Shown: positions 9,169-60,465, counted from the stretch's first letter. The stretch is DNA of 64,000 nt from Candidatus Micrarchaeota archaeon CG1_02_51_15 (GCA_001871495.1 MNVG01000007.1:4322-68321), one strand, 5' to 3'. Program-made: numbers and translations. The notes: generated by a model not told the origin, from the letters alone.

Positions 9169-9294
9169 GCAGGGGTGGCAGAGTCTGGTCAAACCCGCTT
9201 GTTTTTCACGGTCGAAACCAGGAGGGAACTTGATGCGCAGGACTCAGAATCCTGTGGCCTAGCGCCTGCGAGGGTTCAAATCCCTTCTCCTGCA
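9169..9294 (+). tRNA. tRNA-Leu(CAG) with a 39-nt non-canonical intron in the D-arm (between positions 22 and 23)
   Basis: Acceptor GCAGGGG pairs with CUCCUGC (one G-U). D-stem GCAG / C+(intron 9195..9233)+UGC. Anticodon arm CAGGA-CUCAGAA-UCCUG. Long variable arm. T-arm GAGGG-UUCAAAU-CCCUU. Discriminator A. The ORF 9175..9459 is spurious. Confidence 0.6.
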
Positions 9295-9488
9295 CTCTTA
9301 CTTATTAAGCTCGATTTGGCTACTGCCTTTAAGACATTCTGCAAGCCCGAAAAAGTCGTCGGCATGTCCTTCCAAGCCGCGGGATTGGCGGCGCCGATAC
9401 CTTTCCGACGGTACGCGCACTCAAACCGCGTTTATAACACAGCTTATTCTAAACTTTAAAACATACTTCACATATCAACATTAAACAC

Positions 9489-10306: not shown

Positions 10307-10462
10307 ACCCAACAATTAGGAGCCGGCCTAATCGGAAACTCCGGCGCCTCTCTTTTTTTGAATTCCCTCACTAAACAAGTCTCCTACCTCAAACCGCGCA
10401 AACCAATGCCTCCGCCTAACGCCAAGGCGCAGTTTCTTAAACCGTTTTGCCATAAGCCGAGT

Positions 10463-11845
10463 ATGAGGCTTTCGTTCCACGGCGCAGCCGGCGTTGTCAC
10501 TGGCTCTTGTTACTTGCTTGAAACAGCAAACAGCAGGGTACTAGTCGACTGCGGCATGTTCCAAGGCTCGAAGAACGTCACCCGCTTGAATTACGAGCCC
10601 TTCAACTTCGACGCATCCAAAATCCAGTACTTGCTGCTTACGCACGCACACATTGACCACTCCGGATTGATTCCCAAGTTGGTAAAGCACGGTTTCAGGG
10701 GAAGGATTTTTGCAACGCGGCCCACAGTCGACTTGGCGAAAATCATGCTTGAAGATTCTGCGAATATAGCCGTACAAGACACGGAGCACGAAAACAAACG
10801 CAGGCTGCGCGCAGGCCTCCCGCCAAGAAAGCCGCTTTACGGCCTTCCGGAAGTAAAAGCAGCCTGCAAACTATTCACTGCTAAAGAATACGACGCACGT
10901 TTTGACTTGACAAACGGAATAGCAGTGCGTTTTCAAGACGCGGGGCACATCCTCGGTTCAGCCATTGTTGAAGTCTGGGTCACTGAAGCAGGTAAGACCA
11001 ACAAAATAGTTTTCTCAGGCGACTTAGGCCAGACAAACACACCGATAGTGCCAGACCCCACGCCAATAAACGACGCGGACTTCGTGGTAGTCGAATCGAC
11101 TTACGGAGACCGTTTGCACGCGGACTCCGGAATAAGGGAAGAACTTTTCGCCAAGGAAGTCAACGACACGTTCAAAAAAGGCGGCAAACTGATGATTCCA
11201 TCGTTCGCAATCGAAAGGACGCAGGAACTCCTGTATTACTTGAAGAGAATAGAACGCGACAAAAGACTGCCTGCAGAAAAAGTGTTTCTCGACAGCCCGC
11301 TTGCCATAAAAGCCACTGAAGTATTCAAGAAAAACATGGCTTACGCAGAACCCGAGCTCAAACAAGAATTTTCAGACCCGTTTAACCTAAGGCAATTGAC
11401 TTACCTCAAAAGCACGCAGGAATCCAAGTCATTAAACGAATACAAGCGACCGTGCATAATAATCGCAGGAAGCGGAATGTGCACCGCCGGAAGAATAAGG
11501 CACCACTTGAAGCACAACCTGTGGAAACCGGAGAACACGGTTTTGTTCGTGGGTTATCAAGCAGAAGGAACGCTGGGCCGCCTAATCCTTGAAGGCGCGA
11601 AGACAGTCCGCATGATGGGCACTGAAGTCGCAGTAAAATCGAGAGTAAGCAGAATGGAAAGCTTCTCATCCCACGCCGACTCCCGCGAACTATTAAACTG
11701 GATGACAAACTTCACGAAAACCCCGAAAAAAGTATTCGTGACGCACGGCGAACCTGACGCAGCCAACGCACTCGCGGCGAAACTAAACGCACTCGGCTTC
11801 AAAACCTACATTCCCGCGCTGTACGAACAAACAGAGATAAAATAA
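10463..11845 (+). CDS. beta-CASP family metallo-beta-lactamase ribonuclease (aRNase J / aCPSF2-like)
   Basis: MRLSFHGAAGVVTGSC start. HAHIDHSG MBL motif 2. beta-CASP region. C-terminal HGE motif. The ORF-track N-terminal extension 10358..10462 is probably not translated. Confidence 0.8.
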   Translation: MRLSFHGAAGVVTGSCYLLETANSRVLVDCGMFQGSKNVTRLNYEPFNFDASKIQYLLLTHAHIDHSGLIPKLVKHGFRGRIFATRPTVDLAKIMLEDSANIAVQDTEHENKRRLRAGLPPRKPLYGLPEVKAACKLFTAKEYDARFDLTNGIAVRFQDAGHILGSAIVEVWVTEAGKTNKIVFSGDLGQTNTPIVPDPTPINDADFVVVESTYGDRLHADSGIREELFAKEVNDTFKKGGKLMIPSFAIERTQELLYYLKRIERDKRLPAEKVFLDSPLAIKATEVFKKNMAYAEPELKQEFSDPFNLRQLTYLKSTQESKSLNEYKRPCIIIAGSGMCTAGRIRHHLKHNLWKPENTVLFVGYQAEGTLGRLILEGAKTVRMMGTEVAVKSRVSRMESFSSHADSRELLNWMTNFTKTPKKVFVTHGEPDAANALAAKLNALGFKTYIPALYEQTEIK

Positions 11846-16708: not shown

Positions 16709-17557
16709 TCACGTCGTCGCCGGGACACCGCAAGACTTTACCTGAAAGCGTGACGTACCGCCCACAGGCGACTTGGTTGCAGCACGCTGCCTTGGCATAA
16801 TGTGAAATTCCTTCTCTTCAAGTTGTTCAATTGTTTGAATGCCTTTCTCCAGATTAAACTCATAGATTTCGGCATACAAGTCAATCAATGCGCTGGCTTG
16901 AGGCGTTATTTTTTGCCACGCTCCCTCATTGGAACCCTTTCCGCTAACCATAGTAGGGCAAGCGATTACGCTAATGTTTCTTACCCTCGCCCACTCGTAT
17001 ATTTCAAGAATTTCAGAGTAATTGCCGCAAGTCACTGGGAGCACGGCAAGGCAGAGCCGCGACGGGTTGTGCTTGTTTAACCCTGCTTCTGCAAGTAATT
17101 CCGGCGCGCGGTTTCGTTTAAGCGAATACCCCTCCATTCCGCCCACCATTTCGTCTTGGGTGCACAGGTCAAACGAGTTAAAGCCAAGCATTATGCTTGC
17201 GTTTACTTTAGTGATTTCTTCAACCAATTCTTTTCCCGTAGATATACCGTATTGCGAATTCCATTTGCGGGCTTCGGCGTCATCTCCAATTACGTGCCCT
17301 TTAGTAAACACCAGCAGAGTTACATCAAGTTTCTTCAACTCGCGCAGGAACTCGAAGAACCGCTCGTTTTGGAACGGCTCGCTGGCTCCAAGAAACTTTA
17401 CCGACTTCAAGCCAAGCCGTTTGGCGTCCTTGATTAGGCGCAGGGTCTCGTCGAAATCCATTGGCTTTTCCTGCCCGGCGTAAACGCGGTTTTCTCGCCT
17501 GAAACAATGCGGACAATTAAGGGTACAATAATCGCCAAAGTCTATGTCTAAAGTCAA
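16709..17557 (-). CDS. radical SAM domain protein
   Basis: CTLNCPHC (Cx3Cx2C) near the N-terminus in a TIM-barrel-like context. 282 aa. No partner genes nearby. Confidence 0.55.
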   Translation of the reverse strand: MTLDIDFGDYCTLNCPHCFRRENRVYAGQEKPMDFDETLRLIKDAKRLGLKSVKFLGASEPFQNERFFEFLRELKKLDVTLLVFTKGHVIGDDAEARKWNSQYGISTGKELVEEITKVNASIMLGFNSFDLCTQDEMVGGMEGYSLKRNRAPELLAEAGLNKHNPSRLCLAVLPVTCGNYSEILEIYEWARVRNISVIACPTMVSGKGSNEGAWQKITPQASALIDLYAEIYEFNLEKGIQTIEQLEEKEFHIMPRQRAATKSPVGGTSRFQVKSCGVPATT

Positions 17558-41496: not shown

Positions 41497-42948
41497 GTGA
41501 TGCATTTGGCAACGGGAGACGCAAGACAGTTTTTGAAGACACTTAACGACAAGCAGAAGGCCTACGTGGACTTCGGCCTGAAAAACCCGCGCAACGGCGA
41601 GTACATGCTCACTGCCTTCAGGCTGGTTCCAGGCCGCGGCCTTAATTTCCTGCAAGCAGCCGCTGAAATAGCCGCCGAGTCGTCCACCGGAACCAACTTC
41701 AAGGTTCAAACAGAAACCGCATTCTCGCGAGAAATGAACGCCCTCGTTTACCAAGCCGACTCCAAGCGAAACCTTGTTTGGATTGCGTACCCTTGGCGGC
41801 TGTTCGACCGCCGCGGAAACGTCCAAAACATCCTCACTTACTTAGTCGGAAACGTTTTGGGAATGAAGGAAGTCGACGGCCTCAAGCTGTTGGACGTGTG
41901 GTTTCCACCTGCGATGCTCGAACAATACGACGGACCAAGCTACACGCTAGACGACATGCGCAAGTACCTGAAGGTCTATAACCGCCCCATTTTAGGCACA
42001 ATAGTAAAGCCAAAGATGGGCTTGACTTCCGCAGAGTACGCCGAAGTATGCTACGACTTCTGGGTCGGCGGAGGCGACTTCGTAAAAAACGACGAGCCGC
42101 AAGCCGACCAGGACTTCTGTCCCTATTACAAAATGGTCAAACACGTCAAGCAGGCGATGGACAAGGCAATCAAAAAAACTGGGAAGAAGAAAGTGCATTC
42201 GTTCAACGTGTCGGCAGCCGACTGCGACACGATGATAACGCGGTGTGAAATGATTCGCAACGCCGGCTTCGAACCAGGAAGTTACGCCTTCCTCATAGAC
42301 GGAATAATGGCAGGCTGGACCGCAGTCCAGACGCTGCGGCGGCGTTATCCCGACGTGTTCATCCACTTCCACCGTGCAGGGCACGGTGCGTTCACGCGGC
42401 CCGAAAACCCGTTTGGTTTTTCCGTGCTCGTACTCTCCAAGTTCGCGCGGCTTGCAGGCGCTTCAGGAATCCACACTGGCACAGCAGGCGTAGGCAAAAT
42501 GAAAGGCACCCCCGAAGAAGACGTGGTCGCAGCACACAACATACTGCACTTCAAAGACAAGGGCCACTTGTTCGAACAGGAATGGAACTTGATCCCCGAA
42601 AACGACAAGAACGCAATCGAACTGGTCCATTTGGACTTAGCACACCACGTCATCCTCGAAGACGATTCCTGGAGGGGAATGAAGAAGTGCTGCCCAATTG
42701 TTTCAGGCGGATTAAATCCCCTGCTGCTCAAGCCGTTCATTGACATGATGGGAAACACGGACTTCATAACAACAATGGGGGCCGGCTGCCACGCGCACCC
42801 TGAAGGAACCAAAGCAGGTGCAACTGCACTAGTTCAAGCCTGCGACGCCCAGCAAAAAAGAATACCCCTCGAAAAATACGCTAAAACTCACAAGGAACTT
42901 GCAACGGCAATAAAGTTTTTTGGAAAGAAAAAACGCAGGCCGGAATAA
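41497..42948 (+). CDS. rbcL: ribulose-1,5-bisphosphate carboxylase/oxygenase large subunit, form III (archaeal)
   Basis: AAESSTGT, GTIVKPKMGLT, GGGDFVKNDEP, HFHRAGHG and GGL motifs. No small subunit gene adjacent. 483 aa. Confidence 0.9.
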   Translation: MMHLATGDARQFLKTLNDKQKAYVDFGLKNPRNGEYMLTAFRLVPGRGLNFLQAAAEIAAESSTGTNFKVQTETAFSREMNALVYQADSKRNLVWIAYPWRLFDRRGNVQNILTYLVGNVLGMKEVDGLKLLDVWFPPAMLEQYDGPSYTLDDMRKYLKVYNRPILGTIVKPKMGLTSAEYAEVCYDFWVGGGDFVKNDEPQADQDFCPYYKMVKHVKQAMDKAIKKTGKKKVHSFNVSAADCDTMITRCEMIRNAGFEPGSYAFLIDGIMAGWTAVQTLRRRYPDVFIHFHRAGHGAFTRPENPFGFSVLVLSKFARLAGASGIHTGTAGVGKMKGTPEEDVVAAHNILHFKDKGHLFEQEWNLIPENDKNAIELVHLDLAHHVILEDDSWRGMKKCCPIVSGGLNPLLLKPFIDMMGNTDFITTMGAGCHAHPEGTKAGATALVQACDAQQKRIPLEKYAKTHKELATAIKFFGKKKRRPE

Positions 42949-42998: not shown

Positions 42999-43808
42999 AT
43001 GCAACGCCTTAAGCTAAACGGAATGGCTATTTTAACTTTTGTATTAGCCTTGGCTTTTGTTGCGACTGCAGGCGCCGCCGAAGTGCGGATTGCATCCGAA
43101 ATAAGTGCAGGCAGCCACAATGCGTACGTGTTCGAGGCAGGCGCACCTGCTTCTGGCAGCGTAGATTTCGTTTCGCCTTCCGGAGACGTTTTTGCGCGCG
43201 AATTGGATTCCAACGGAGCGGCCGAGTTTTACTTCGATTCAGTCGGCGCTTGGAACGTGCGTTACGGCAACGTTTCTGCTAAAACGGAAGTAACGCAAGC
43301 CATGGTTTTTGCTTCAAGCGGAAATTATGCAACGCCAATTACGTTGCAATCCGCATCCAAAGAAACCGCGATTAAACCAGTTGCTGCCGAACTTTCGTTG
43401 TTTTCTAGCGATTCATTTTTATGGCCTGCATTGTTTTTCGCATTGCTGGGCGCAACTGCATGGTACTTCTTTGGGTACTCGGTTTTGAAAATAAGTAAAA
43501 AAGCAACCGAAGACAAAGTGACCATAATAGTCGAAAACAGGGGGCCTTCACTGAAGGAAGTTATCTTGACCGATGTTGCCCCCGAAGGAACGCGGACAAC
43601 CTTTTTTTCAGAGGTTCCCGAAGTAAGCGAAACCGTGTTGGGAAACTGCTTCCGTTGGAAGAAGGCATTGCTGCGAAACGGAGAAGCCTGGAAGATAAGT
43701 TACAAATTACAGGACGCTAAGGGCGTGTTGCGCAACGCTTTGATTGTCGGAACCGCAGTAAACGGAAGGGTTTTCAAAGCGGCAAGTACCGAATTAGAGT
43801 TGGATTAA
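42999..43808 (+). CDS. secreted/membrane-anchored protein (signal peptide + one TM), hypothetical
   Basis: N-terminal signal ILTFVLALAFVATAGAA and internal TM FLWPALFFALLGATAWYFF. 269 aa. Confidence 0.45.
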   Translation: MQRLKLNGMAILTFVLALAFVATAGAAEVRIASEISAGSHNAYVFEAGAPASGSVDFVSPSGDVFARELDSNGAAEFYFDSVGAWNVRYGNVSAKTEVTQAMVFASSGNYATPITLQSASKETAIKPVAAELSLFSSDSFLWPALFFALLGATAWYFFGYSVLKISKKATEDKVTIIVENRGPSLKEVILTDVAPEGTRTTFFSEVPEVSETVLGNCFRWKKALLRNGEAWKISYKLQDAKGVLRNALIVGTAVNGRVFKAASTELELD

Positions 43809-44613
43809 ACACTGTTTTTTTTTTCGTTGTTGCCTTAATTGCACGCTTCCATTCGTCGCTTAATAAAGTCAGTTCTTCAACTGCAAGCGAGCAGGCCCGA
43901 CGCTCGGAGAGGGAAAGCTTGGCAACGGCTTTTTTGATTTCTTCTTTTCCGAATCCGAAATTTCCCGCAGAGTGCATTAAGGCGTTGCGCACGGTTTGGT
44001 TCTTGTGCTGAAACAAAGAGTTTATCAACGCGGCGTCAAGCTTATTGACTTGCGAAGCCCTTTTTTTCTCAAGCAGTACTATTGCCGAGTCGACGCGCGG
44101 CGAAGGCGAAAAGCACGACGCGGGGACGAACGAGATTATGGAAACCGAAGCATTGTTTTGTGCAAGCACGGACAGACGCGAATACTCCCGAGAGTCGGGT
44201 TTGGCAACTAGGCGCTGTGCAAATTCTTTTTGCACCATAAGTACTGCAAACGGACTGTTGCTCTCGATTATCTTAAGCAATAGCGGAGTCGAAATATTGT
44301 AAGGAAGGTTGCCGAAAACCGCGTCGTAACCGCTGAATTCGGAATACAGTGCGTCGGCACGTACTATTTCCACGTTATCGAATTCCAAAACGCTCTGCCG
44401 CAGTTCCGGAATGAGCCTAGCATCGACTTCAAGTGCAGTTACTTTTTTTGCGCGCGCAGCAAGGAAGGCAGTAAGAATTCCGGTTCCCGCGCCTATTTCA
44501 AGCACGTTCTTTCCGTCCAATTCTATTGTTTCTGCTATTTGCTCGGCAACTGACTCGTCATCTAGAAAACATTGTCCGAAACGCTTCAATGGTCTGAACT
44601 GCATTTTAATCAC
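43774..44613 (-). CDS. ksgA: 16S rRNA (adenine1518/1519-N6)-dimethyltransferase KsgA/Dim1
   Basis: FGQCFLDDESVAEQI, VLEIGAGTGILT (motif I), and NLPYNISTPL. Confidence 0.88.
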   Translation of the reverse strand: MIKMQFRPLKRFGQCFLDDESVAEQIAETIELDGKNVLEIGAGTGILTAFLAARAKKVTALEVDARLIPELRQSVLEFDNVEIVRADALYSEFSGYDAVFGNLPYNISTPLLLKIIESNSPFAVLMVQKEFAQRLVAKPDSREYSRLSVLAQNNASVSIISFVPASCFSPSPRVDSAIVLLEKKRASQVNKLDAALINSLFQHKNQTVRNALMHSAGNFGFGKEEIKKAVAKLSLSERRACSLAVEELTLLSDEWKRAIKATTKKKTVFNPTLIRYLPL

Positions 44614-45037
44614 TTTCCAAAACTACAAGCAAGAGGGCACAGAAGCCTATAAGTTCGAACATTATGGTGGCCGCGTCAAAAGAAAGGGATAACCCAACCT
44701 GACTAGTAAAATCGAAGGAAACCAATGGAAAAAACAATGGCAATGGCGAATTTAAGTCCAGTGCAAGGTGGAACCACGAGCCGACTAATGCGGCCACAGC
44801 CAATGGAACCCGCGTTTGGCGCGGGAAAAACGCGATGCACATTAATGCAAGCGCAATACCAAACCAAACCGTATGGGCAATGAACCTGCTCGTAGGCGCC
44901 ATTCCTAATAGGTACAACGGTTTGTCGATCAAGTCGGGCAAAACAGAGAACACCGCAGTAGCAAGAAGGGGCAGATGAACGGGCTTGAAGTGTTTTGCAA
45001 AAAAGAGGGTTATCCCGACGTGGGCCAAAGGCAACAT
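44606..45037 (-). CDS. polytopic membrane protein (possible DUF457/YdjM-like hydrolase)
   Basis: 143 aa with four hydrophobic helices and conserved His/Asp positions. Weak assignment. Confidence 0.35.
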   Translation of the reverse strand: MLPLAHVGITLFFAKHFKPVHLPLLATAVFSVLPDLIDKPLYLLGMAPTSRFIAHTVWFGIALALMCIAFFPRQTRVPLAVAALVGSWFHLALDLNSPLPLFFPLVSFDFTSQVGLSLSFDAATIMFELIGFCALLLVVLESD

Positions 45038-45040
45038 GGT

Positions 45041-45610
45041 TTAGTACCTGCGGTCTTCTTCCGTACGTGCGGGCTTGGCGAACAAGTAATACTTGGAAGT
45101 GCCCCTAAGTTCTTCGAATACGCGGTCTGCAATTATTTGTTCCACGCTTCGAATGTGCGTGACGCGGGCTTGAATGTCTTTAAAGCTGGTAAACGGTTGT
45201 TTGGCGCGGGCGTCGAGAAGACTTTGAAGGTGCTTCTTTCCAATTGACGGCAGCATTTCCAGAGAATGGCAACGGATGTTGACTGCTCCGGCACGATTAA
45301 GGAATTGGACGAACTCCGCTTCCCTTGTCCGTATTATTGTCGGAACCACGCGGTGCAATGCATTTTGTGCACTGTTGGTCAAATCGTCGAAAGTTATCCT
45401 TCCTATTATGCGCTCGACTTTTTCGCGTTCGTCACGGCCTAAGTACACCCGCTCGCCCTCGCGTGCCTGCATTCCCTGCTTCAAAGTAACCTCCAGTAAA
45501 GTAAACTGCATTTCACCTACGACCTGTACTATTGCATCGGGCGAAGCTCCTGCTGACCGGCCGTGAGGCAGGAAATCGAGGACTAGTCCATACTCTTCGC
45601 GTTTAATCAT
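45041..45610 (-). CDS. DUF655/COG1491 OB-fold nucleic-acid-binding protein
   Basis: MIKREEYGLVLDFLPHGR N-terminus. Sits in the conserved archaeal rpl21e-rpoF-DUF655-ksgA gene order. Confidence 0.6.
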   Translation of the reverse strand: MIKREEYGLVLDFLPHGRSAGASPDAIVQVVGEMQFTLLEVTLKQGMQAREGERVYLGRDEREKVERIIGRITFDDLTNSAQNALHRVVPTIIRTREAEFVQFLNRAGAVNIRCHSLEMLPSIGKKHLQSLLDARAKQPFTSFKDIQARVTHIRSVEQIIADRVFEELRGTSKYYLFAKPARTEEDRRY

Positions 45611-45665
45611 ATTCCATCGCCCGTTATATGCGAAAAAAGAATTAGCGAGTTTCTCTTAAATAAGT

Positions 45666-46010
45666 CTATCGGTATTCCTTACACGCCGCAATGACTTGCT
45701 TAATTTGCTCGGCTTCAAGCGAAAACCCGTTTTGGAACAACGCAGCCCGGACATCATCGTCTTTGGCAGGCAGCAAGTCGACGACCTTGGCAATCTGTTT
45801 GGCGTCGAGAAAACCCAGTGCTTCGAGCGCCTTTTTGAGTTTCGCGGCATCTTTGGCAGTAAGATGGGCAAATTTTTCAGCGTAATCAAGAGTATTCTGT
45901 TGCTCGTAACTCAACGCGGCATCGCCCTTCTGCCTATTTTTCAGCAAATCCGCTACCTCAACCAAGGTAACGGGCCTCTCGGAAACAGCTTGCATAAACC
46001 AAAACCTCAC
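45666..46010 (-). CDS. rpoF: DNA-directed RNA polymerase subunit F (Rpo4)
   Basis: 114 aa helical protein in the canonical position between rpl21e and DUF655. The VADLLKN...YAEKFAH pattern fits Rpo4. Confidence 0.65.
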   Translation of the reverse strand: MRFWFMQAVSERPVTLVEVADLLKNRQKGDAALSYEQQNTLDYAEKFAHLTAKDAAKLKKALEALGFLDAKQIAKVVDLLPAKDDDVRAALFQNGFSLEAEQIKQVIAACKEYR

Positions 46011-46286
46011 TTAAACCTTCTGCAGGTGCCTGGCCGAAACCACGAACCTCTTCGACTTCTTGATGTCGGTAAGCTCCACGCTGTACGCACGGCCCTGGCG
46101 CCCGACTATCTTGCACAGCCTACCGTTATACCTTAAGGAAATTTGCCCGCCAGGAACCCTGCAGTCAAGCCTAATCCTTACAGTCTCCCCGGTTGCAAAA
46201 TCAGCTAGTTGCCGAGTTATAGGAACCCGACCGCGAAGCTTAAGCCCCCTACTACGTCCCGCGTTATACCCATGAGATCTCTTCAA
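46011..46286 (-). CDS. rpl21e: 50S ribosomal protein L21e
   Basis: MKRSHGYNAGRSRGL... basic N-terminus and SH3-like core typical of L21e. Confidence 0.85.
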   Translation of the reverse strand: MKRSHGYNAGRSRGLKLRGRVPITRQLADFATGETVRIRLDCRVPGGQISLRYNGRLCKIVGRQGRAYSVELTDIKKSKRFVVSARHLQKV

Positions 46287-46314: not shown

Positions 46315-46665
46315 TTGTTACTCGCCAATAGTAGTGATATTACTATGAATGCGGATGACCTGTCGTCTTTGTTAATTGGTTTCCTCATACTTGTATTTAT
46401 ACTTGTTGAAATACAGGGTGCAAGCCCCGCAAGCGCTTTGATAGGCGCGCCAGGCGCATTAGTAGGTTCAATAGGGTTAGTTTTAATAGGATTGGGAAAC
46501 GCAGTTGCCGCCGGATTCGGCTTCCTACTATCGTTTGGATTCGCAGGAGTAATCGCACTAGTCGTAGCACTCTTACTTTTAAAAGACGGCTTCGCACCTG
46601 CATTCAAAGCAAGCCATGTTCTGGCCGTATTGGCTTTTATTGCAATAATGATGCTCGCTTTATGA
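46315..46665 (+). CDS. small Gly/Ala-rich membrane protein, hypothetical
   Basis: 116 aa with three hydrophobic segments. Confidence 0.35.
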   Translation: MLLANSSDITMNADDLSSLLIGFLILVFILVEIQGASPASALIGAPGALVGSIGLVLIGLGNAVAAGFGFLLSFGFAGVIALVVALLLLKDGFAPAFKASHVLAVLAFIAIMMLAL

Positions 46666-46749
46666 CTTTAGGCGGGGTTTAAATAGGGGTTTAAAATACT
46701 AATCGTAAGCATATCTGCTTGAAAATGATGATTTGGAGGGAGTGTTTAA

Positions 46750-47049
46750 GTGGTAGCCAAAAAAGGAAAGACCGCCAAGAAAATCGATACTAGTTTTAAT
46801 GTAGAAAATATAGTTGCAAGTGCGAACCTCAAAGTCGAGCTCGACTTGTTCAACATTGCAATGAACATTGACAACGTAGAATATGAACCGGAGCAATTCC
46901 CAGGCGCTATAATGCGACTCAAAGAAATCGGCACCACGTTGTTGCTCTTCAAGAACGGCAAGGTGATCTGTAGCGGTGCAAAAAACGAAAAACAAATTGC
47001 AGCCAGCATAGCAAAGGCAGTTGAATTACTCCGGGAGTATATCACGTAA
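46750..47049 (+). CDS. single-repeat TATA-box-binding-protein-like protein (half-TBP, 99 aa)
   Basis: GTG start 9 nt after a GGAGGG Shine-Dalgarno-like motif. K-rich N-tail, then exactly one TBP repeat: NVENIVASANLKVELDLFNIAMNIDNVEYEPEQFPGAIMRLKEIGTTLLLFKNGKVICSGAKNEKQ. Flanking genes leave no space for a second repeat. Confidence 0.7.
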   Translation: MVAKKGKTAKKIDTSFNVENIVASANLKVELDLFNIAMNIDNVEYEPEQFPGAIMRLKEIGTTLLLFKNGKVICSGAKNEKQIAASIAKAVELLREYIT

Positions 47050-47097
47050 TCCCGAACTAAACGAATCCTTTTTATACTTCGCGCTTCAGAATAGCTA

Positions 47098-47216
47098 GCG
47101 ACAGCGGTCATAGGAGTGGGGCAAGACCCGTTCCCTTTCCGAACACGGAAGTCACTCCCGCTTACGACTGCGCCAGTACTGTTCTGATGAACGGGAAAAC
47201 CGGTTTCTGCTGTCAC
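47098..47216 (+). rRNA. rrf: 5S ribosomal RNA (stand-alone)
   Basis: GCGACAGCGGUCAUAGG...CCGAACACGGAAGU...GCUGUCAC. Helix I pairing GACAGC/GCUGUC, conserved loop C/helix III motif. About 120 nt. The minus ORF 46746..47216 is spurious. Confidence 0.8.
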
Positions 47217-47262: not shown

Positions 47263-48288
47263 CTAACCAACTATTACGTCCAGCACTACTTCGTCTTCGA
47301 ACGGAGAATAATGTAAGACCGCGCGTTTGCTGATTATTCTACATTTTCGTCCCGCTTTTGCGCAAGCGGCGCGCACAAGCGACGAAGGCTTGCTAAAGGC
47401 ATCGAGCGTGTTTCTTTCGACATCCCTCCTTTGTCCAAAAGAATAGAAATGAACCACGCCCCCTCGCTTGAGCACCGCCAGCGCGCCGTCAAGGAATTCA
47501 TGGGCCGAATGAGGCAACGGCATTACCACTCGGTCGAACGCGCCGCAGTTGACGGGTTTTGCACAGAATTTTGCAGCGTCGGCGCGCACGGCTTTCACGC
47601 GACCGATAACCTTGTTTGCTTCAATATTTTTTTCAAGAAACGGAATTGCGTTCGGATTGAGTTCGACTGCCACGAAATGCGCAAGCGGCTGTTTTTTGGA
47701 ACCTATTATGGCAAAGGGACCGACACCTGCGAACAGCACGAGCACGCGCTCGCCTTCTTTGACCTGCACGGCAATGCGTTCGCGTTCGAATGAAAGACGG
47801 GAAGAAAAGTAAACCAATGCAGGGTCTACTGCAAACGAACAGCCGCTCTCACGGTGCACTGTTTCCGTGTCCCTGCGGCCTACGAGTACGCGCAGGCGGC
47901 GTACTCGGTACTTGCCGCTAAAAGCGCTCTTAAGCGCGACGCAACAGATGCGGGGATTGGTTTCAAGCAATATGCGCGCAGCTTCACCTGCCTTTCCAAT
48001 AGATTCCGCATCGATTAGCGCAACATCGCCTATTAGGTCAAAAGGAAATTCCAGAGCAGTTGGCTTGGACTTGTTTGGCTGAAAGCGGGCGCGAGTTATT
48101 TCGTGTTCGAATGGAAGGACCACAGACGCATCGCGGGAGATGGGAAACAGGATGAATTCTTTTTTCTTCAAAGGAGCGTATTCGTGCGAAAGGACGTTTT
48201 CACTAAGGAGAAACCGTTTGGCCCGCTCTGCGTCTTTAAGCCTGACTTTAACTGCTTTCAAAACGCGTTTGGCAACCGGATTCATCAT
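47263..48288 (-). CDS. trm5: tRNA (guanine37-N1)-methyltransferase Trm5 (Trm5/TYW2-Taw2 family)
   Basis: Class I MTase with LVLFAGVGPFAI and VELNPNA (Trm5/TYW2 motifs). About 340 aa from the internal Met. The basic 47-aa N-terminal extension in the ORF track is probably not translated. Confidence 0.7.
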   Translation of the reverse strand: MMNPVAKRVLKAVKVRLKDAERAKRFLLSENVLSHEYAPLKKKEFILFPISRDASVVLPFEHEITRARFQPNKSKPTALEFPFDLIGDVALIDAESIGKAGEAARILLETNPRICCVALKSAFSGKYRVRRLRVLVGRRDTETVHRESGCSFAVDPALVYFSSRLSFERERIAVQVKEGERVLVLFAGVGPFAIIGSKKQPLAHFVAVELNPNAIPFLEKNIEANKVIGRVKAVRADAAKFCAKPVNCGAFDRVVMPLPHSAHEFLDGALAVLKRGGVVHFYSFGQRRDVERNTLDAFSKPSSLVRAACAKAGRKCRIISKRAVLHYSPFEDEVVLDVIVG

Positions 48289-48320
48289 TGTTTTAAAACT
48301 TTGGCTGCTTAAAGGTTTTT

Positions 48321-49175
48321 GTGGACTTTTCTTCTTTTTTGGATAGTTATTTCTTAGAGCCATTGCGCAGGCCCGGAGAAGCCGCGCCTTACAATTGGGC
48401 GAATACGCTAGCGTACGCAGTTGCCGCATTGGTTGCTACTTTTGCAATATTCAAGGGCTTGCAACGGCTCAAAATAAAAATAGACGGAAAATTTTTTGCG
48501 GCAATACTGCCGTTCGTGTTATTCGGCAGTGCACTGCGAGTTGCCCAGGACGCAGGAACGTTGCCGCGCGCAGTCGATTTTTTCGGGCTCGAACTTTTTC
48601 CATTCGTGACTCCCGGGATTTATTTGATTACTTTTGGGCTGGTCGCACTGTCTATTGACGCGGCGCTTGCTGTTGAAAAAAAAACAGGCATTCCGTTATG
48701 GAAGACAGTCGGAGGAATCGGCTTGATTCTAGCGTTAGGCGCCTTGCTTCCCGCATTGGGGATTGCCAAGTATTGGTTGCACGGCTTGCTGGCTCTGCTT
48801 ATGGGCTGTAGCGGCATATTGTTGTTCAAACTGGCTGCAGTAGCGTTCAAGCACAGGACGGAATGGATGGAACACGCGGCGGTTTTCGGCCAATGTTTTG
48901 ACGGCGCGGCAACGTTTGTTGGAATTGGAATAGGCACGCCTTCGGCACAGTATTTCGAACAGCACGCTGTAGGCGGCACCTTGATTGAAGCAGCGGGTCC
49001 GCTGGCATTCTATGCACTTAAGGTAGTGTTCGCGCTGGCAGCGGTTACGATTGTGCGAAACGAGTTCATTAAAAAAGAGGACGCCGAAAAGAAGACTTAT
49101 GTACTGTTGCTGCTTACTATCTTCGGCTTGGCGCCTGGAGCACGCGACGTCCTTAGGATAATGGCAGGAGTTTGA
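48321..49175 (+). CDS. polytopic integral membrane protein (archaeal DUF63-like)
   Basis: 284 aa with seven or more TM helices. Its stop overlaps the start of the next gene (ATGA). Confidence 0.5.
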   Translation: MDFSSFLDSYFLEPLRRPGEAAPYNWANTLAYAVAALVATFAIFKGLQRLKIKIDGKFFAAILPFVLFGSALRVAQDAGTLPRAVDFFGLELFPFVTPGIYLITFGLVALSIDAALAVEKKTGIPLWKTVGGIGLILALGALLPALGIAKYWLHGLLALLMGCSGILLFKLAAVAFKHRTEWMEHAAVFGQCFDGAATFVGIGIGTPSAQYFEQHAVGGTLIEAAGPLAFYALKVVFALAAVTIVRNEFIKKEDAEKKTYVLLLLTIFGLAPGARDVLRIMAGV

Positions 49176-59157: not shown

Positions 59158-60465
59158 ATGGAAATAAGTTTCCTCGGCGGAGCCGGGGAAGTAGGCAGAA
59201 GTTGCATACTCGTAAGCGGAAGCGAAAAAATACTGCTTGATTGCGGCGTCAAATTCAAAGAACGCGAAGAATTCCCTCAGCTAGATAACAAAACTGCGCG
59301 GTCGCTCGACCGCGCGGTGATAAGCCACGCACACATGGACCACTCGGGATTCGCGCCGGCATTATACGCAGCAGGCTATACTGGACAAGTATACCTCACC
59401 AAACCCACGCGGGACCTAACCCAATTACTTCTTGCAGATTACCTGCGGTTGCAAAAAGACTTTTCCCCCTACACTCAAGACGACATAAACAAGCTGCTTA
59501 CTCACACTCAAATTCTAGAGTACGACCAATGGAGCGACAAAGGAAAGGGGCCCATCCGCTTTCAAGAGGCAGGCCACATTCTAGGCAGCGCAATCACGGA
59601 ACTCAACCTCGACGGAAAGAAAATAATCTACACCGGCGACATAAACCTGCGCAGCTCGCGTCTCCTCGAAGGTGCTAAAGTAGGAATGGAAGCCGACGTG
59701 CTGATAATCGAAAGCACTTACGGCGCAAAGGCAAACCACCACATAGCAGGAAAAGACGCAGACCGCATACTCATAGACAACATAAACGCCGCACTCCGCA
59801 ACGACGGCAAGGTCATAATCCCCTCGTTTGCAATAGGCCGCGGGCAAGAAATCCTGTCAACACTAGAGAGCTTCATGCGCTCGGGAAGCCTTGAAAAAAC
59901 CCCTATTTACTTAGACGGCATGATAAAAAAAGCCCTCAAGATATACCGTCACAACGCAATCTACCTCAAAAAGGAAGTGCAACGTAGGATACTTACCAGC
60001 GACGACGACCCGTTCAAAAGCGAGTTTTACCTCATACCCAAAAGCAAAGACCGACGCGACGTCTTCGAACAAAAAAAAGCGATAATAGTAACTACTTCGG
60101 GAATGCTTAACGGAGGCCCGGTATTCACTTACCTTGAACACCTGGCAGGAAGCAAGAAAAACGCGATGATACTCGTAGGCTATCAAGCCGAAGGCACGCG
60201 CGGACGCAAGCTGCTCGATGGCGCAAAAGAAATCGAACTTAGACGAAAAACAGTAGAAGTAAACCTGAAAGTGTCACAAGCGCCGTTCACTGCCCACAGC
60301 GACCACCGCGAACTAGTCCACTTTGCCAAAAACGTGAGGGGACTCAAGAAAGTGTTCATAGTGCACGGCGAAAAGGAAAAACTCGGCGAACTCGCAACAG
60401 CAATACGCAGGGCAACCGGAGCCGAAGTAGTAATCCCAGAAATAGGCGAAACGCACCAAATATAA
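59158..60465 (+). CDS. beta-CASP family metallo-beta-lactamase ribonuclease, second paralog
   Basis: MEISFLGGAGEVGRSC, HAHMDHSG, beta-CASP motifs, and C-terminal HGE. 435 aa. Confidence 0.8.
   Translation: MEISFLGGAGEVGRSCILVSGSEKILLDCGVKFKEREEFPQLDNKTARSLDRAVISHAHMDHSGFAPALYAAGYTGQVYLTKPTRDLTQLLLADYLRLQKDFSPYTQDDINKLLTHTQILEYDQWSDKGKGPIRFQEAGHILGSAITELNLDGKKIIYTGDINLRSSRLLEGAKVGMEADVLIIESTYGAKANHHIAGKDADRILIDNINAALRNDGKVIIPSFAIGRGQEILSTLESFMRSGSLEKTPIYLDGMIKKALKIYRHNAIYLKKEVQRRILTSDDDPFKSEFYLIPKSKDRRDVFEQKKAIIVTTSGMLNGGPVFTYLEHLAGSKKNAMILVGYQAEGTRGRKLLDGAKEIELRRKTVEVNLKVSQAPFTAHSDHRELVHFAKNVRGLKKVFIVHGEKEKLGELATAIRRATGAEVVIPEIGETHQI

What the first reader, a model, noticed from the sequence alone, without database searches (positions are those of the whole stretch)
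46750..47049. Stand-alone single-repeat TBP-like gene (half-TBP) next to the 5S rRNA
The 99-aa ORF has a GTG start and a strong GGAGGG Shine-Dalgarno-like motif. It encodes a Lys-rich tail plus one clear TBP repeat (NIVAS...LDL..IA....EYEPEQFPG...LLLFKNGKVICSGAKNE). Canonical archaeal and eukaryotic TBPs carry two tandem repeats of about 180 aa in total. Here the upstream neighbour is a membrane-protein gene, and the 5S rRNA starts 48 nt downstream, so no second repeat can fit. A monomeric half-TBP could act as a homodimer, which is the presumed ancestral state of TBP. Alternatively it could be an accessory TBP-domain regulator.
Basis: partly seen in the sequence, partly recalled or inferred. 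Interest (0 to 1): 0.72.

Follow-up and report, generated by a model that had tools for sequence, protein, structure and literature searches.

The report
Single-repeat (half-size) TBP of Micrarchaeota
This archaeon, like at least 57 related Micrarchaeota species, encodes only one of the two repeats of the universal TATA-binding protein, in the genomic slot where relatives keep the normal two-repeat gene. It most likely works as a symmetric homodimer, which would be a living version of the long-postulated ancestor of TBP.

Summary
ORF 46750-47049 (+, GTG, 99 aa) encodes a Lys-rich tail and exactly one complete TBP repeat (PF00352, 97 bits, profile 1-85/85). An in-frame TAA lies directly upstream, and the 5S rRNA starts 50 nt downstream. 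No second repeat exists in any frame of the 64-kb window.

It is not an artefact. The same roughly 100-aa gene occurs in 57 different species-level Micrarchaeota genomes. It sits in the conserved slot KsgA-DUF655-RpoF-L21e | TBP | 5S rRNA, which holds a normal two-repeat TBP in Anstonellales and Iainarchaeota-type relatives.

The gene is under extreme purifying selection: median 86% identity, against 38-52% for neighbouring genes, and 52 invariant columns. It keeps the Phe pair and the EYEPEQFPG stirrup. A head-to-tail in-silico fusion folds into a full TBP saddle (1.8 Å to P. woesei TBP).

Best explanation: it is the positional orthologue of TBP and acts as a homodimer. It is probably derived rather than a relic, because this clade shows repeated switching between one-repeat and unusually symmetric two-repeat TBPs.

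Not shown: that it is the only TBP in the genome. No description of it was found in the searchable literature.

The parts
46750..47049 (+). Single-repeat TBP gene (GTG start, 99 aa, TAA stop)
   Evidence: ORF list and sequence. PF00352 gives one stretch, E=6e-28. PDB TBPs match with both of their repeats at E~1e-34.
46750..46791 (+). Lys-rich N-terminal tail (residues 1-14, MVAKKGKTAKKIDT)
   Evidence: Disordered in the AF2 model (pLDDT <50 for residues 1-8). A basic tail of variable length but similar composition is present in all 65 aligned homologues. Its length is similar to the linkers of two-repeat relatives.
46792..47040 (+). The single TBP repeat (residues 15-97): S1-H1-S2-stirrup-S3-S4-S5-H2
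   Evidence: Pfam stretch 15-97. DSSP elements E16-26, H33-39, E43-45, E53-57, E62-66, E71-75, H80-97. Foldseek rmsd 0.9-1.2 Å to TBP lobes. F50 and F67 align with the conserved Phe residues of both repeats of crystallised TBPs, and EYEPEQFPG (44-52) is identical to the P. woesei C-terminal stirrup.
46735..46740 (+). GGAGGG Shine-Dalgarno-like motif, 9 nt before the GTG
   Evidence: Read from the sequence. Function is inferred.
46747..46749 (+). In-frame TAA directly upstream of the start codon, which bounds the ORF
   Evidence: Read from the sequence.
46678..46698 (+). Two TATA-like boxes (TTTAAATA, TTTAAAATA), a putative promoter of the TBP gene
   Evidence: Read from the sequence. Inferred only.
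47069..47076 (+). TTTTTATA, 24-31 nt upstream of the 5S 5' end: putative 5S promoter TATA box, and possibly an oligo-T terminator for the TBP gene
   Evidence: Read from the sequence. Inferred only.
47100..47215 (+). 5S rRNA gene
   Evidence: Rfam RF00001, 59.2 bits, model 1-120/120. A 5S gene was found within about 2 kb downstream of the TBP gene in 25 main-group loci, on the same strand in 24 of them (38-1062 nt downstream), and also downstream of two-repeat TBPs in L066, L067, L069, L071 and L073.
46315..46665 (+). 116-aa hydrophobic ORF between L21e and TBP. It is lineage-specific and not part of the conserved block.
   Evidence: No Pfam hit. Found only in the closest relatives L001 and L003 and as an unannotated 106-aa gene in L081 and L082.
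43774..46286 (-). Conserved divergent block KsgA (43774-44613), YdjM-like (44606-45037), DUF655 (45041-45610), RpoF/Rpb4 (45666-46010), L21e (46011-46286)
   Evidence: Pfam. The same block lies upstream of single-repeat and of two-repeat TBP genes in related genomes.
47263..48429 (-). Trm5/TYW2-type tRNA methyltransferase, the conserved downstream neighbour
   Evidence: Pfam PF02475, E=1.3e-44. Synteny.

Best explanation
The gene encodes the organism's TATA-binding protein in a one-repeat form. Two identical 99-aa chains are proposed to pair through their S1 edge strands into the usual ten-stranded saddle. Each chain would contribute one Phe pair to kink the TATA box and one EYEPEQFPG stirrup. 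TFB would bind one stirrup, and its BRE contact would set the direction of transcription, as it already does for the nearly symmetric archaeal TBPs. The single-repeat gene is the positional orthologue of the two-repeat TBP gene of sister lineages.

It most likely arose by loss of one repeat from, or before re-duplication into, the unusually symmetric TBPs of the Micrarchaeota/Iainarchaeota cluster.

Shown here:
- the one-repeat architecture;
- conservation across the lineage;
- positional orthology;
- strong purifying selection;
- retention of the canonical residues;
- structural compatibility with a saddle.

Inferred, not shown:
- homodimerisation;
- DNA and TFB binding;
- that this is the only TBP in the cell.
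For: (1) Architecture. There is one complete PF00352 repeat and no other in the 64 kb.

(2) It is real and widespread. Of 120 listed homologues, 104 are 91-132 aa. Fifty-seven distinct GTDB species genomes (L001-L057) each carry one stop-bounded single-repeat ORF, including on a 1.30-Mb and a 452-kb contig.

(3) Positional orthology. The block KsgA-DUF655-RpoF-L21e(-) | TBP(+) | 5S(+) flanks the single-repeat genes. The upstream part also flanks the two-repeat TBPs of L060, L061, L063, L067, L070, L073, L075, L076, L078 and L080. A 5S gene lies 39-76 nt downstream of the two-repeat genes in L066, L067, L069, L071 and L073.

(4) Constraint. The TBP domain has a median 86% identity to the window protein, against L21e 40, RpoF 41, DUF655 52, KsgA 49, Trm5 38 and DUF63 42. 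At matched DUF655 divergence (45-60%), single-repeat pairs stay at 85% (n=1048) while two-repeat N and C repeats are at 59% and 53% (n=28). Fifty-two columns are invariant in 65 sequences. Between species, amino-acid identity is 89% but only 46% of identical residues use the same codon, so synonymous sites are saturated.

(5) Functional residues. F50 and F67 and the motifs NIVAS, EYEPEQFPG and LLLFKNGK align with both repeats of S. acidocaldarius, M. jannaschii and P. woesei TBP.

(6) Fold. The monomer superposes on a TBP lobe at 0.9-1.2 Å. A head-to-tail fusion using the protein's own basic tail as linker gives pLDDT 88.6, pTM 0.78, and TM 0.82/0.89 with rmsd 1.8 Å to 1AIS_A.

(7) No N/C specialisation. 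In the complete Ca. Fermentimicrarchaeum genome the two single-repeat genes are 98-99% identical, so they are not complementary halves.

(8) No co-occurrence seen. No assembly among the best 80 loci carries both a main-group single-repeat gene and a two-repeat gene. No second TBP-like domain occurs in the 0.85 Mb of main-group flanks.
Against: Whole genomes could not be scanned, so a canonical two-repeat TBP, or a divergent partner half, elsewhere in the genome is not excluded. The collection scan used 8-mer patterns from the query and kept only the best 80 of 327 relatives.

The tandem model was built with an alignment that contains real two-repeat TBPs. It is therefore biased towards the canonical saddle and says nothing about the affinity of two separate chains.

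A perfectly symmetric TBP offers two TFB-binding stirrups, which could allow bidirectional complexes. No experiment addresses this.

There are no expression data.
Confidence: 0.6

Rival explanations
1. It is an accessory paralogue. A normal two-repeat TBP is encoded elsewhere in the genome, and this half-TBP is a regulator or specialised factor, for example a competitor at TATA boxes or for TFB. This would resemble Halobacterium TbpA or the Thermococcales monopartite TBP-domain proteins, which coexist with full TBPs.
For: All previously described single-TBP-domain proteins coexist with full-length TBPs (PMC3597702). Whole genomes could not be scanned here.
Against: The gene sits in the slot that holds the canonical TBP in sister lineages. 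It is far more conserved than the neighbouring ribosomal and RNAP-subunit genes and than two-repeat TBPs at equal divergence, which is the opposite of a redundant paralogue. It is not divergent from TBPs: 97 bits to PF00352 and about 40% identity to canonical repeats. The Thermococcales class, in contrast, is described as only distantly related to the TBPs of the same genomes. Genomes of this group are small, about 0.9-1.3 Mb.
Confidence: 0.2
2. It is a split TBP. The protein heterodimerises with a second, divergent single-repeat protein encoded elsewhere, so the functional unit is still an asymmetric N/C pair.
For: Split genes are frequent in DPANN archaea (own knowledge). Some relatives do carry two single-repeat genes (L059; L062 and L072).
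Against: Where two copies exist they are 96.6-98.4% identical at the DNA level, so they are not N/C-specialised. Each main-group genome gave only one locus among the best 80. Among the 150 best cluster representatives the only intact single-repeat families are the main group (P0030) and the Burarchaeales/Fermentimicrarchaeales type (P0203). The other one-stretch hits cluster with the N or C repeats of two-repeat TBPs and look like fragments. A partner would relax, not double, the constraint on each residue, which is contrary.
Confidence: 0.1
3. It is an artefact or pseudogene: a collapsed tandem repeat in the assembly, or the remnant of a truncated TBP gene.
For: A single 64-kb window cannot by itself exclude mis-assembly.
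Against: The same architecture appears in 57 or more independent assemblies made by different groups and assemblers, with stop codons on both sides. Selection is very strong. The repeats of neighbouring two-repeat TBPs are at most about 80% identical at the DNA level, which is too different to collapse.
Confidence: 0.02

Closest known systems
Canonical archaeal TBP (for example P. woesei 1AIS/1PCZ, S. acidocaldarius 1MP9, M. jannaschii 2Z8U)
   Same: Same Pfam family (PF00352). About 40% identity to either repeat. Same lobe fold (rmsd about 1 Å). The same Phe pair and the same EYEPEQFPG stirrup. Same genomic slot as the TBP of sister DPANN lineages.
   Different: One repeat per polypeptide (99 aa) instead of two (about 180 aa), so the saddle must be formed by two chains and is exactly rather than pseudo-symmetric. 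It has a basic N-terminal tail. It scores below all NCBIfam TBP cut-offs.
Halobacterium TbpA-type truncated TBP (as cited in Brindefalk et al. 2013, PMC3597702)
   Same: A single TBP domain that clusters with genuine TBP repeats rather than with divergent TBP-like domains.
   Different: TbpA is described as very similar to the full-length TBPs of the same species and as non-essential, one of several TBP paralogues. The present gene is conserved across an order-level or deeper lineage, is present as one locus per genome in the best hits, and occupies the canonical TBP locus.
Monopartite TBP-domain proteins of Thermococcales and other Euryarchaea (Brindefalk et al. 2013, Table 3)
   Same: Stand-alone proteins of about 91-96 aa with one TBP-like domain.
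   Different: Those proteins are only distantly related to TBPs, form a separate sequence cluster, and coexist with full TBPs. The Micrarchaeota protein is a bona fide, highly conserved TBP repeat.
Symmetric two-repeat TBPs of Anstonellales, Iainarchaeota and unnamed Micrarchaeota (L060-L080; P0002-P0011)
   Same: The closest sequence relatives (52-65% identity). Same synteny, same motifs, same basic tails and linkers.
   Different: They have two repeats with 51-84% inter-repeat identity, against 32-56% in 28 canonical archaeal TBPs. They probably document fusion or fission events from or to the single-repeat state.

Membership tests
TBP family (Pfam PF00352, TATA-box-binding protein) | Sequence match to the TBP repeat profile above the curated threshold | tested here: met
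   97 bits against a cut-off of 22.9; full-length match 1-85/85.
TBP family (Pfam PF00352, TATA-box-binding protein) | TBP lobe fold (five-stranded antiparallel sheet plus two helices) | tested here: met
   AF2 pLDDT 84.4. Foldseek finds 44 PDB TBP chains at E<=3e-5, with rmsd 0.9-1.2 Å over about 79 residues.
TBP family (Pfam PF00352, TATA-box-binding protein) | Two tandem repeats in one polypeptide forming the pseudo-symmetric saddle | tested here: not met
   One repeat only. There is an in-frame stop directly upstream and the 5S rRNA lies 50 nt downstream. No second repeat exists in six frames of the 64 kb.
TBP family (Pfam PF00352, TATA-box-binding protein) | Conserved DNA-kinking Phe pair and concave-face residues in the repeat | tested here: met
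   F50 (QFPG) and F67 (LLLF) align with the conserved Phe residues of both repeats of 1MP9, 2Z8U and 1AIS and are invariant in 65 homologues, as are N20, V22, S24, R56, K71, I73 and S75. Their role in DNA contact is from established TBP structural knowledge, not tested here.
TBP family (Pfam PF00352, TATA-box-binding protein) | Stirrup that binds TFB/TFIIB | tested here: inconclusive
   The motif EYEPEQFPG is identical to the C-terminal stirrup of P. woesei TBP in the TBP-TFB-DNA crystal entry 1AIS. Binding itself cannot be tested with these tools.
TBP family (Pfam PF00352, TATA-box-binding protein) | Binds the TATA box and nucleates the pre-initiation complex | not testable with these tools
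   Needs EMSA, footprinting or in vitro transcription.
TBP family (Pfam PF00352, TATA-box-binding protein) | Orthology with the cell's general TBP gene | tested here: met
   Same syntenic slot (KsgA-DUF655-RpoF-L21e | TBP | 5S) as the two-repeat TBPs in related genomes. Uniqueness in the genome was not tested.
NCBIfam TATA-box-binding protein models (NF001592-NF001601) | Whole-protein score above the curated cut-off | tested here: not met
   59-85 bits against cut-offs of 181-347. This explains the 'hypothetical protein' labels in NCBI MAGs.
Divergent monopartite TBP-domain proteins of Euryarchaea (Brindefalk 2013) | Stand-alone single TBP-like domain of about 91-96 aa | tested here: met
   99 aa, one domain.
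Divergent monopartite TBP-domain proteins of Euryarchaea (Brindefalk 2013) | Sequence cluster distinct from genuine TBP repeats, only distantly related to TBPs | tested here: not met
   About 40% identity to canonical repeats and 52-65% to two-repeat TBPs of relatives. It clusters among genuine TBP repeats.
Halobacterial TbpA-type truncated paralogue | Coexists with closely similar full-length TBP genes in the same genome | not tested
   No other TBP is present in the 64-kb window or in 0.85 Mb of flanks of related loci.

The most novel reading that the evidence does not exclude
In a large part of the phylum Micrarchaeota the only TBP is a 100-aa single-repeat protein that acts as an exactly symmetric homodimer. 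The unusually symmetric two-repeat TBPs of sister lineages (Anstonellales, L063-type and L075-type) arose by independent, recent re-duplication and fusion of such a gene. Nature would then have replayed, several times, the duplication that created TBP. These organisms would offer a living model of the postulated homodimeric proto-TBP and of how promoter polarity is set without any TBP asymmetry.
Probability: 0.45. Interest if true: 0.88.

Novelty: new variant of a known kind. Interest (0 to 1): 0.77.

Why it matters
TBP is treated as a universally two-repeat, pseudo-symmetric factor of Archaea and Eukarya. Its origin from a homodimeric one-repeat ancestor is a textbook inference that has no natural example.

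The single-TBP-domain proteins described so far are either divergent or are dispensable paralogues next to full TBPs (PMC3597702). Here a genuine, extremely conserved TBP repeat sits in the TBP locus of a whole lineage. This would make several questions directly testable with natural proteins:
- whether a homodimeric TBP supports transcription;
- how direction is set when TBP is perfectly symmetric (TFB/BRE only);
- how often fusion and fission of the repeats occur.

It also matters in practice. These genes fail the NCBIfam TBP cut-offs and are labelled 'hypothetical protein'. Comparative studies may therefore score these genomes as lacking TBP. Inter-repeat similarity has been used as a clock for TBP antiquity (PMC4910066), and that clock is misleading where repeats are re-duplicated or homogenised.

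Tried and rejected
(1) Testing whether it is the sole TBP. No tool gives whole-genome access to the 1.30-Mb contig or to CP058998. The question is left open.

A version with the window tandem plus real two-repeat homologues (A3) ran, but it is biased by those homologues.

(3) Literature. Eight full-text searches found nothing on single-repeat TBPs in Micrarchaeota or DPANN. Only Brindefalk 2013 covers monopartite TBP domains. Bell et al. 1999 (PMC24121) is not held.

(4) Deep nodes of the repeat tree are unsupported: bootstrap 0-30 for most N+C pairings, 81 for L063. The N-N/C-C against N-C identity test has little power at depth, because even canonical TBPs give only +2.1 points. The direction of change (loss or re-duplication) is therefore argued only for Anstonellales/Burarchaeales, L063 and L075.

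(5) A listing of A/T runs in the window, made to look for promoter motifs, was uninformative beyond the two local TATA-like boxes.

(6) A weak antisense HMM hit (5.3 bits) lies in a radical-SAM gene (16709-17557) and is noise.

(7) No TFB gene was found among the 36 larger window ORFs scanned against Pfam.

Full report
**1. What is in the sequence**

ORF 46750-47049 (+) starts with GTG and encodes 99 aa. A GGAGGG motif lies at 46735-46740, 9 nt upstream of the start. An in-frame TAA (46747-46749) directly precedes the start codon, so the reading frame cannot be extended.

Rfam places a full-length 5S rRNA at 47100-47215 on the same strand. That is 50 nt after the stop codon.

Pfam gives one match to TBP (PF00352): E=6e-28, 97 bits, residues 15-97 covering the whole 85-position profile. 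Residues 1-14 form a Lys-rich tail.

Against the PDB, the protein aligns equally well with the first and the second repeat of S. acidocaldarius, M. jannaschii and P. woesei TBP, at about 40% identity. The alignment includes the Phe of QFPG, the Phe of LLLF, and a stirrup (EYEPEQFPG) identical to the C-terminal stirrup of P. woesei TBP.

A six-frame HMM search and tblastn with 13 two-repeat TBPs found no second repeat anywhere in the 64 kb. Both repeats of every two-repeat query land on 46786-47040.

**2. It is a conserved gene, not an accident**

The window is ordinary archaeal chromosome. It carries aIF2-gamma, class I LysRS, SecDF, thermosome, several aaRS, RuBisCO form III, L21e and RpoF.

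The protein search returned 695 relatives. Of the 120 listed, 104 are 91-132 aa and 75-93% identical, and they are labelled Micrarchaeota, Micrarchaeia or Norongarragalinales where named. Sixteen are longer, two-repeat TBPs at 52-65% identity.

A scan of one genome per GTDB species gave 80 loci.
- L001-L057 come from 57 different assemblies. Each holds one single-repeat ORF closed by stop codons on both sides, and most start MAKK.... They include a 1.30-Mb contig and a 452-kb contig.
- A second, more divergent single-repeat type (54-63% identity) occurs in Burarchaeales and Fermentimicrarchaeales-type genomes: L058, L059, L062, L064, L065, L068, L072, L074 and L077.
- Two-repeat genes occur in Anstonellaceae, Iainarchaeum and unnamed relatives: L060, L061, L063, L066, L067, L069-L071, L073, L075, L076 and L078-L080.
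- Independent ENA and Logan assemblies also call a 99-aa PF00352 gene in the same context.

**3. Positional orthology**

In the window the gene lies between the divergently transcribed block KsgA-YdjM-DUF655-RpoF-L21e and the 5S rRNA, which is followed by Trm5 and DUF63.

This arrangement recurs in about 50 of the 57 main-group loci. The same upstream block also precedes the two-repeat TBP genes of L060, L061, L063, L067, L070, L073, L075, L076, L078 and L080. A 5S gene lies 39-76 nt downstream of the two-repeat genes in L066, L067, L069, L071 and L073.

The single-repeat gene therefore occupies the locus of the canonical TBP of sister lineages.

**4. Selection**

Across the 57 loci the TBP domain is 77-93% identical to the window protein (median 86%). 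The flanking genes have diverged much further: L21e 40%, RpoF 41%, DUF655 52%, KsgA 49%, Trm5 38% and DUF63 42%.

At matched divergence of DUF655 (45-60% identity), single-repeat pairs keep 85% identity (n=1048, minimum 71%). The N and C repeats of two-repeat relatives keep 59% and 53% (n=28). One caveat applies: some of those N or C pairs may not be orthologous.

Fifty-two columns are invariant in 65 sequences.

Between species, protein identity is 89% but nucleotide identity is 75%, and only 46% of identical residues share a codon. Silent sites are thus saturated while the protein is frozen.

This pattern is what a homodimer predicts, because every residue must serve both the 'N-lobe' and the 'C-lobe' role. 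It is the opposite of what a redundant paralogue predicts.

**5. Structure**

The monomer model (pLDDT 84.4) has the S1-H1-S2-S3-S4-S5-H2 order and superposes on single lobes of crystallised TBPs at 0.9-1.2 Å.

I then joined two copies head to tail, with the protein's own basic tail acting as linker. Its length is similar to the 11-15-aa linkers of two-repeat relatives. The fusion is predicted with pLDDT 88.6 and pTM 0.78. It matches whole TBPs, for example 1AIS_A (P. woesei TBP in the TFB-DNA complex) at TM 0.82/0.89 and rmsd 1.8 Å over 182 columns.

This shows compatibility with a saddle. It does not prove dimerisation, because the alignment used for the model contained real two-repeat TBPs.

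**6. Mechanism proposed**

Two chains pair through their S1 strands across a true dyad. Each contributes one Phe pair and one stirrup.

TFB binds one stirrup and reads the BRE, which fixes polarity. In archaea the BRE-TFB contact, not TBP asymmetry, is already held to orient the complex (Bell et al. 1999, cited in PMC4041446; the content is from my own knowledge, as the paper is not held).

The basic tail may add non-specific DNA contacts; this is inference.

TATA-like boxes precede both the TBP gene (46678-46698) and the 5S gene (47069-47076). These were read from the sequence, and their function is inferred.

**7. Evolution**

Published work on 34 species found that N and C repeats form two clades, with 39.9-61.5% nucleotide identity between repeats (PMC4910066).

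In my NJ tree, the repeats of 26 canonical archaeal TBPs largely separate into N and C groups. All repeats of the Micrarchaeota/Iainarchaeota cluster (N, C and single) instead fall together. The well-supported groups are:
- main single-repeat group, bootstrap 98;
- Fermentimicrarchaeales-type singles, 99;
- Anstonellales N, 100, and Anstonellales C, 98;
- L063 N+C, 81.

Deeper nodes are unsupported.

Within-protein N-C identity is 52-84% in this cluster, against 32-56% (mean 44%) in 28 canonical TBPs.

Anstonellales N and C are 70% identical to each other and 71-73% identical to Burarchaeales singles, but only 51-58% identical to Iainarchaeal repeats. The Anstonellales repeats therefore diverged at about the time of the Burarchaeales/Anstonellales split.

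In L063, L075 and L060 the two repeats share 72-80% nucleotide identity, and 71-79% of identical residues use the same codon. That is above the 95th percentile (63%) of between-species comparisons. It indicates recent duplication or gene conversion.

Norongarragalinales, which carry the single-repeat form (L012, L023, L029, L048), are reported as sister to all other Micrarchaeia (PMC8561730).

Together this points to repeated transitions between one-repeat and two-repeat TBPs in this clade. All other archaea and eukaryotes have two repeats, so the single-repeat state is more parsimoniously a secondary return than an uninterrupted relic. The direction of each individual transition is not settled.

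**8. What remains open**

I could not scan whole genomes. A canonical TBP or a divergent partner half elsewhere is therefore not excluded. The indirect evidence against one is:
- each main-group assembly gives one locus;
- no assembly among the best 80 has both forms;
- no further TBP-like domain occurs in the 0.85 Mb of main-group flanks;
- the two copies in the complete Fermentimicrarchaeum genome are 98% identical over exactly the gene, so they are not complementary halves.

**9. Comparison with known cases and novelty**

Brindefalk et al. 2013 (PMC3597702) describe two kinds of stand-alone TBP domain: Halobacterium TbpA, and a divergent class of 91-96 aa in Euryarchaea. Both occur next to full-length TBPs.

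The present protein differs from both. It is a bona fide TBP repeat, it is conserved across a lineage, and it lies in the TBP locus.

Eight full-text searches found no description of it. Many NCBI records call it 'hypothetical protein', because it scores 59-85 bits against NCBIfam TBP cut-offs of 181-347.

I class it as a new variant of a known kind. Interest is high, because it would make the homodimeric proto-TBP hypothesis experimentally accessible.

Noticed in passing
L062 9973-10275 and L072 9973-10275 (both from CP058998.1, Ca. Fermentimicrarchaeum limneticum, about 448 kb and about 894 kb); L059 5105-5460 and 6376-6729: The complete Fermentimicrarchaeum genome carries two dispersed single-repeat TBP genes that are 98.35% identical over exactly the gene (303 nt) and share nothing in their flanks. 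Another MAG has two copies 1.27 kb apart at 96.6% identity. These are gene-sized, homogenised duplicates of a half-TBP, which may reflect dosage compensation or gene conversion.
   Followed up: partly
Proteins P0123 (376 aa), P0125 (272 aa), P0126 (702 aa), P0160 (329 aa): Public proteins with three or four TBP repeats in one chain. This is the opposite extreme of repeat-number variation. Their origin and taxonomy are unknown.
   Followed up: no
L063 10007-10552; L075 8915-9697: Two-repeat TBPs whose repeats are 79-84% identical in protein and about 80% in DNA. This is far above the 39.9-61.5% nucleotide range published for 34 species, so inter-repeat similarity is not a safe indicator of TBP antiquity in this clade.
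   Followed up: partly
window 46750-47049 and homologues: All ten NCBIfam TBP models score the single-repeat protein at 59-85 bits against cut-offs of 181-347. Even the two-repeat relative P0009 (163 bits) fails. These genes are therefore annotated 'hypothetical protein', and genome surveys may score the lineage as lacking TBP.
   Followed up: yes
window 47050-47100; L010, L015, L037, L039, L053, L054, L056, L066-L073: A TBP gene followed within 38-91 nt by a same-strand 5S rRNA gene is conserved across single-repeat and two-repeat lineages. The T-rich TATA-like box of the 5S promoter (47069-47076) could double as the terminator of the TBP gene. Whether the linkage has a regulatory meaning is unknown.
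   Followed up: partly
window 9169-9295: Rfam reports a tRNA match of 126 nt (9169-9294), while ARAGORN calls tRNA-Leu(CAG) at 9218-9295. The extra 5' part of the Rfam match is unexplained.
   Followed up: no
window 41497-42948; 10358-11845 and 59158-60465: A form III-type RuBisCO large subunit and two beta-CASP/RMMBL RNases (aCPSF-like) are present. The RuBisCO gene is syntenic with the TBP region in several related loci.
   Followed up: no
window 46315-46665: A 116-aa very hydrophobic ORF with no Pfam match is inserted between L21e and TBP. It occurs only in the closest relatives (L001, L003, L081, L082) and is absent from the other main-group loci.
   Followed up: partly
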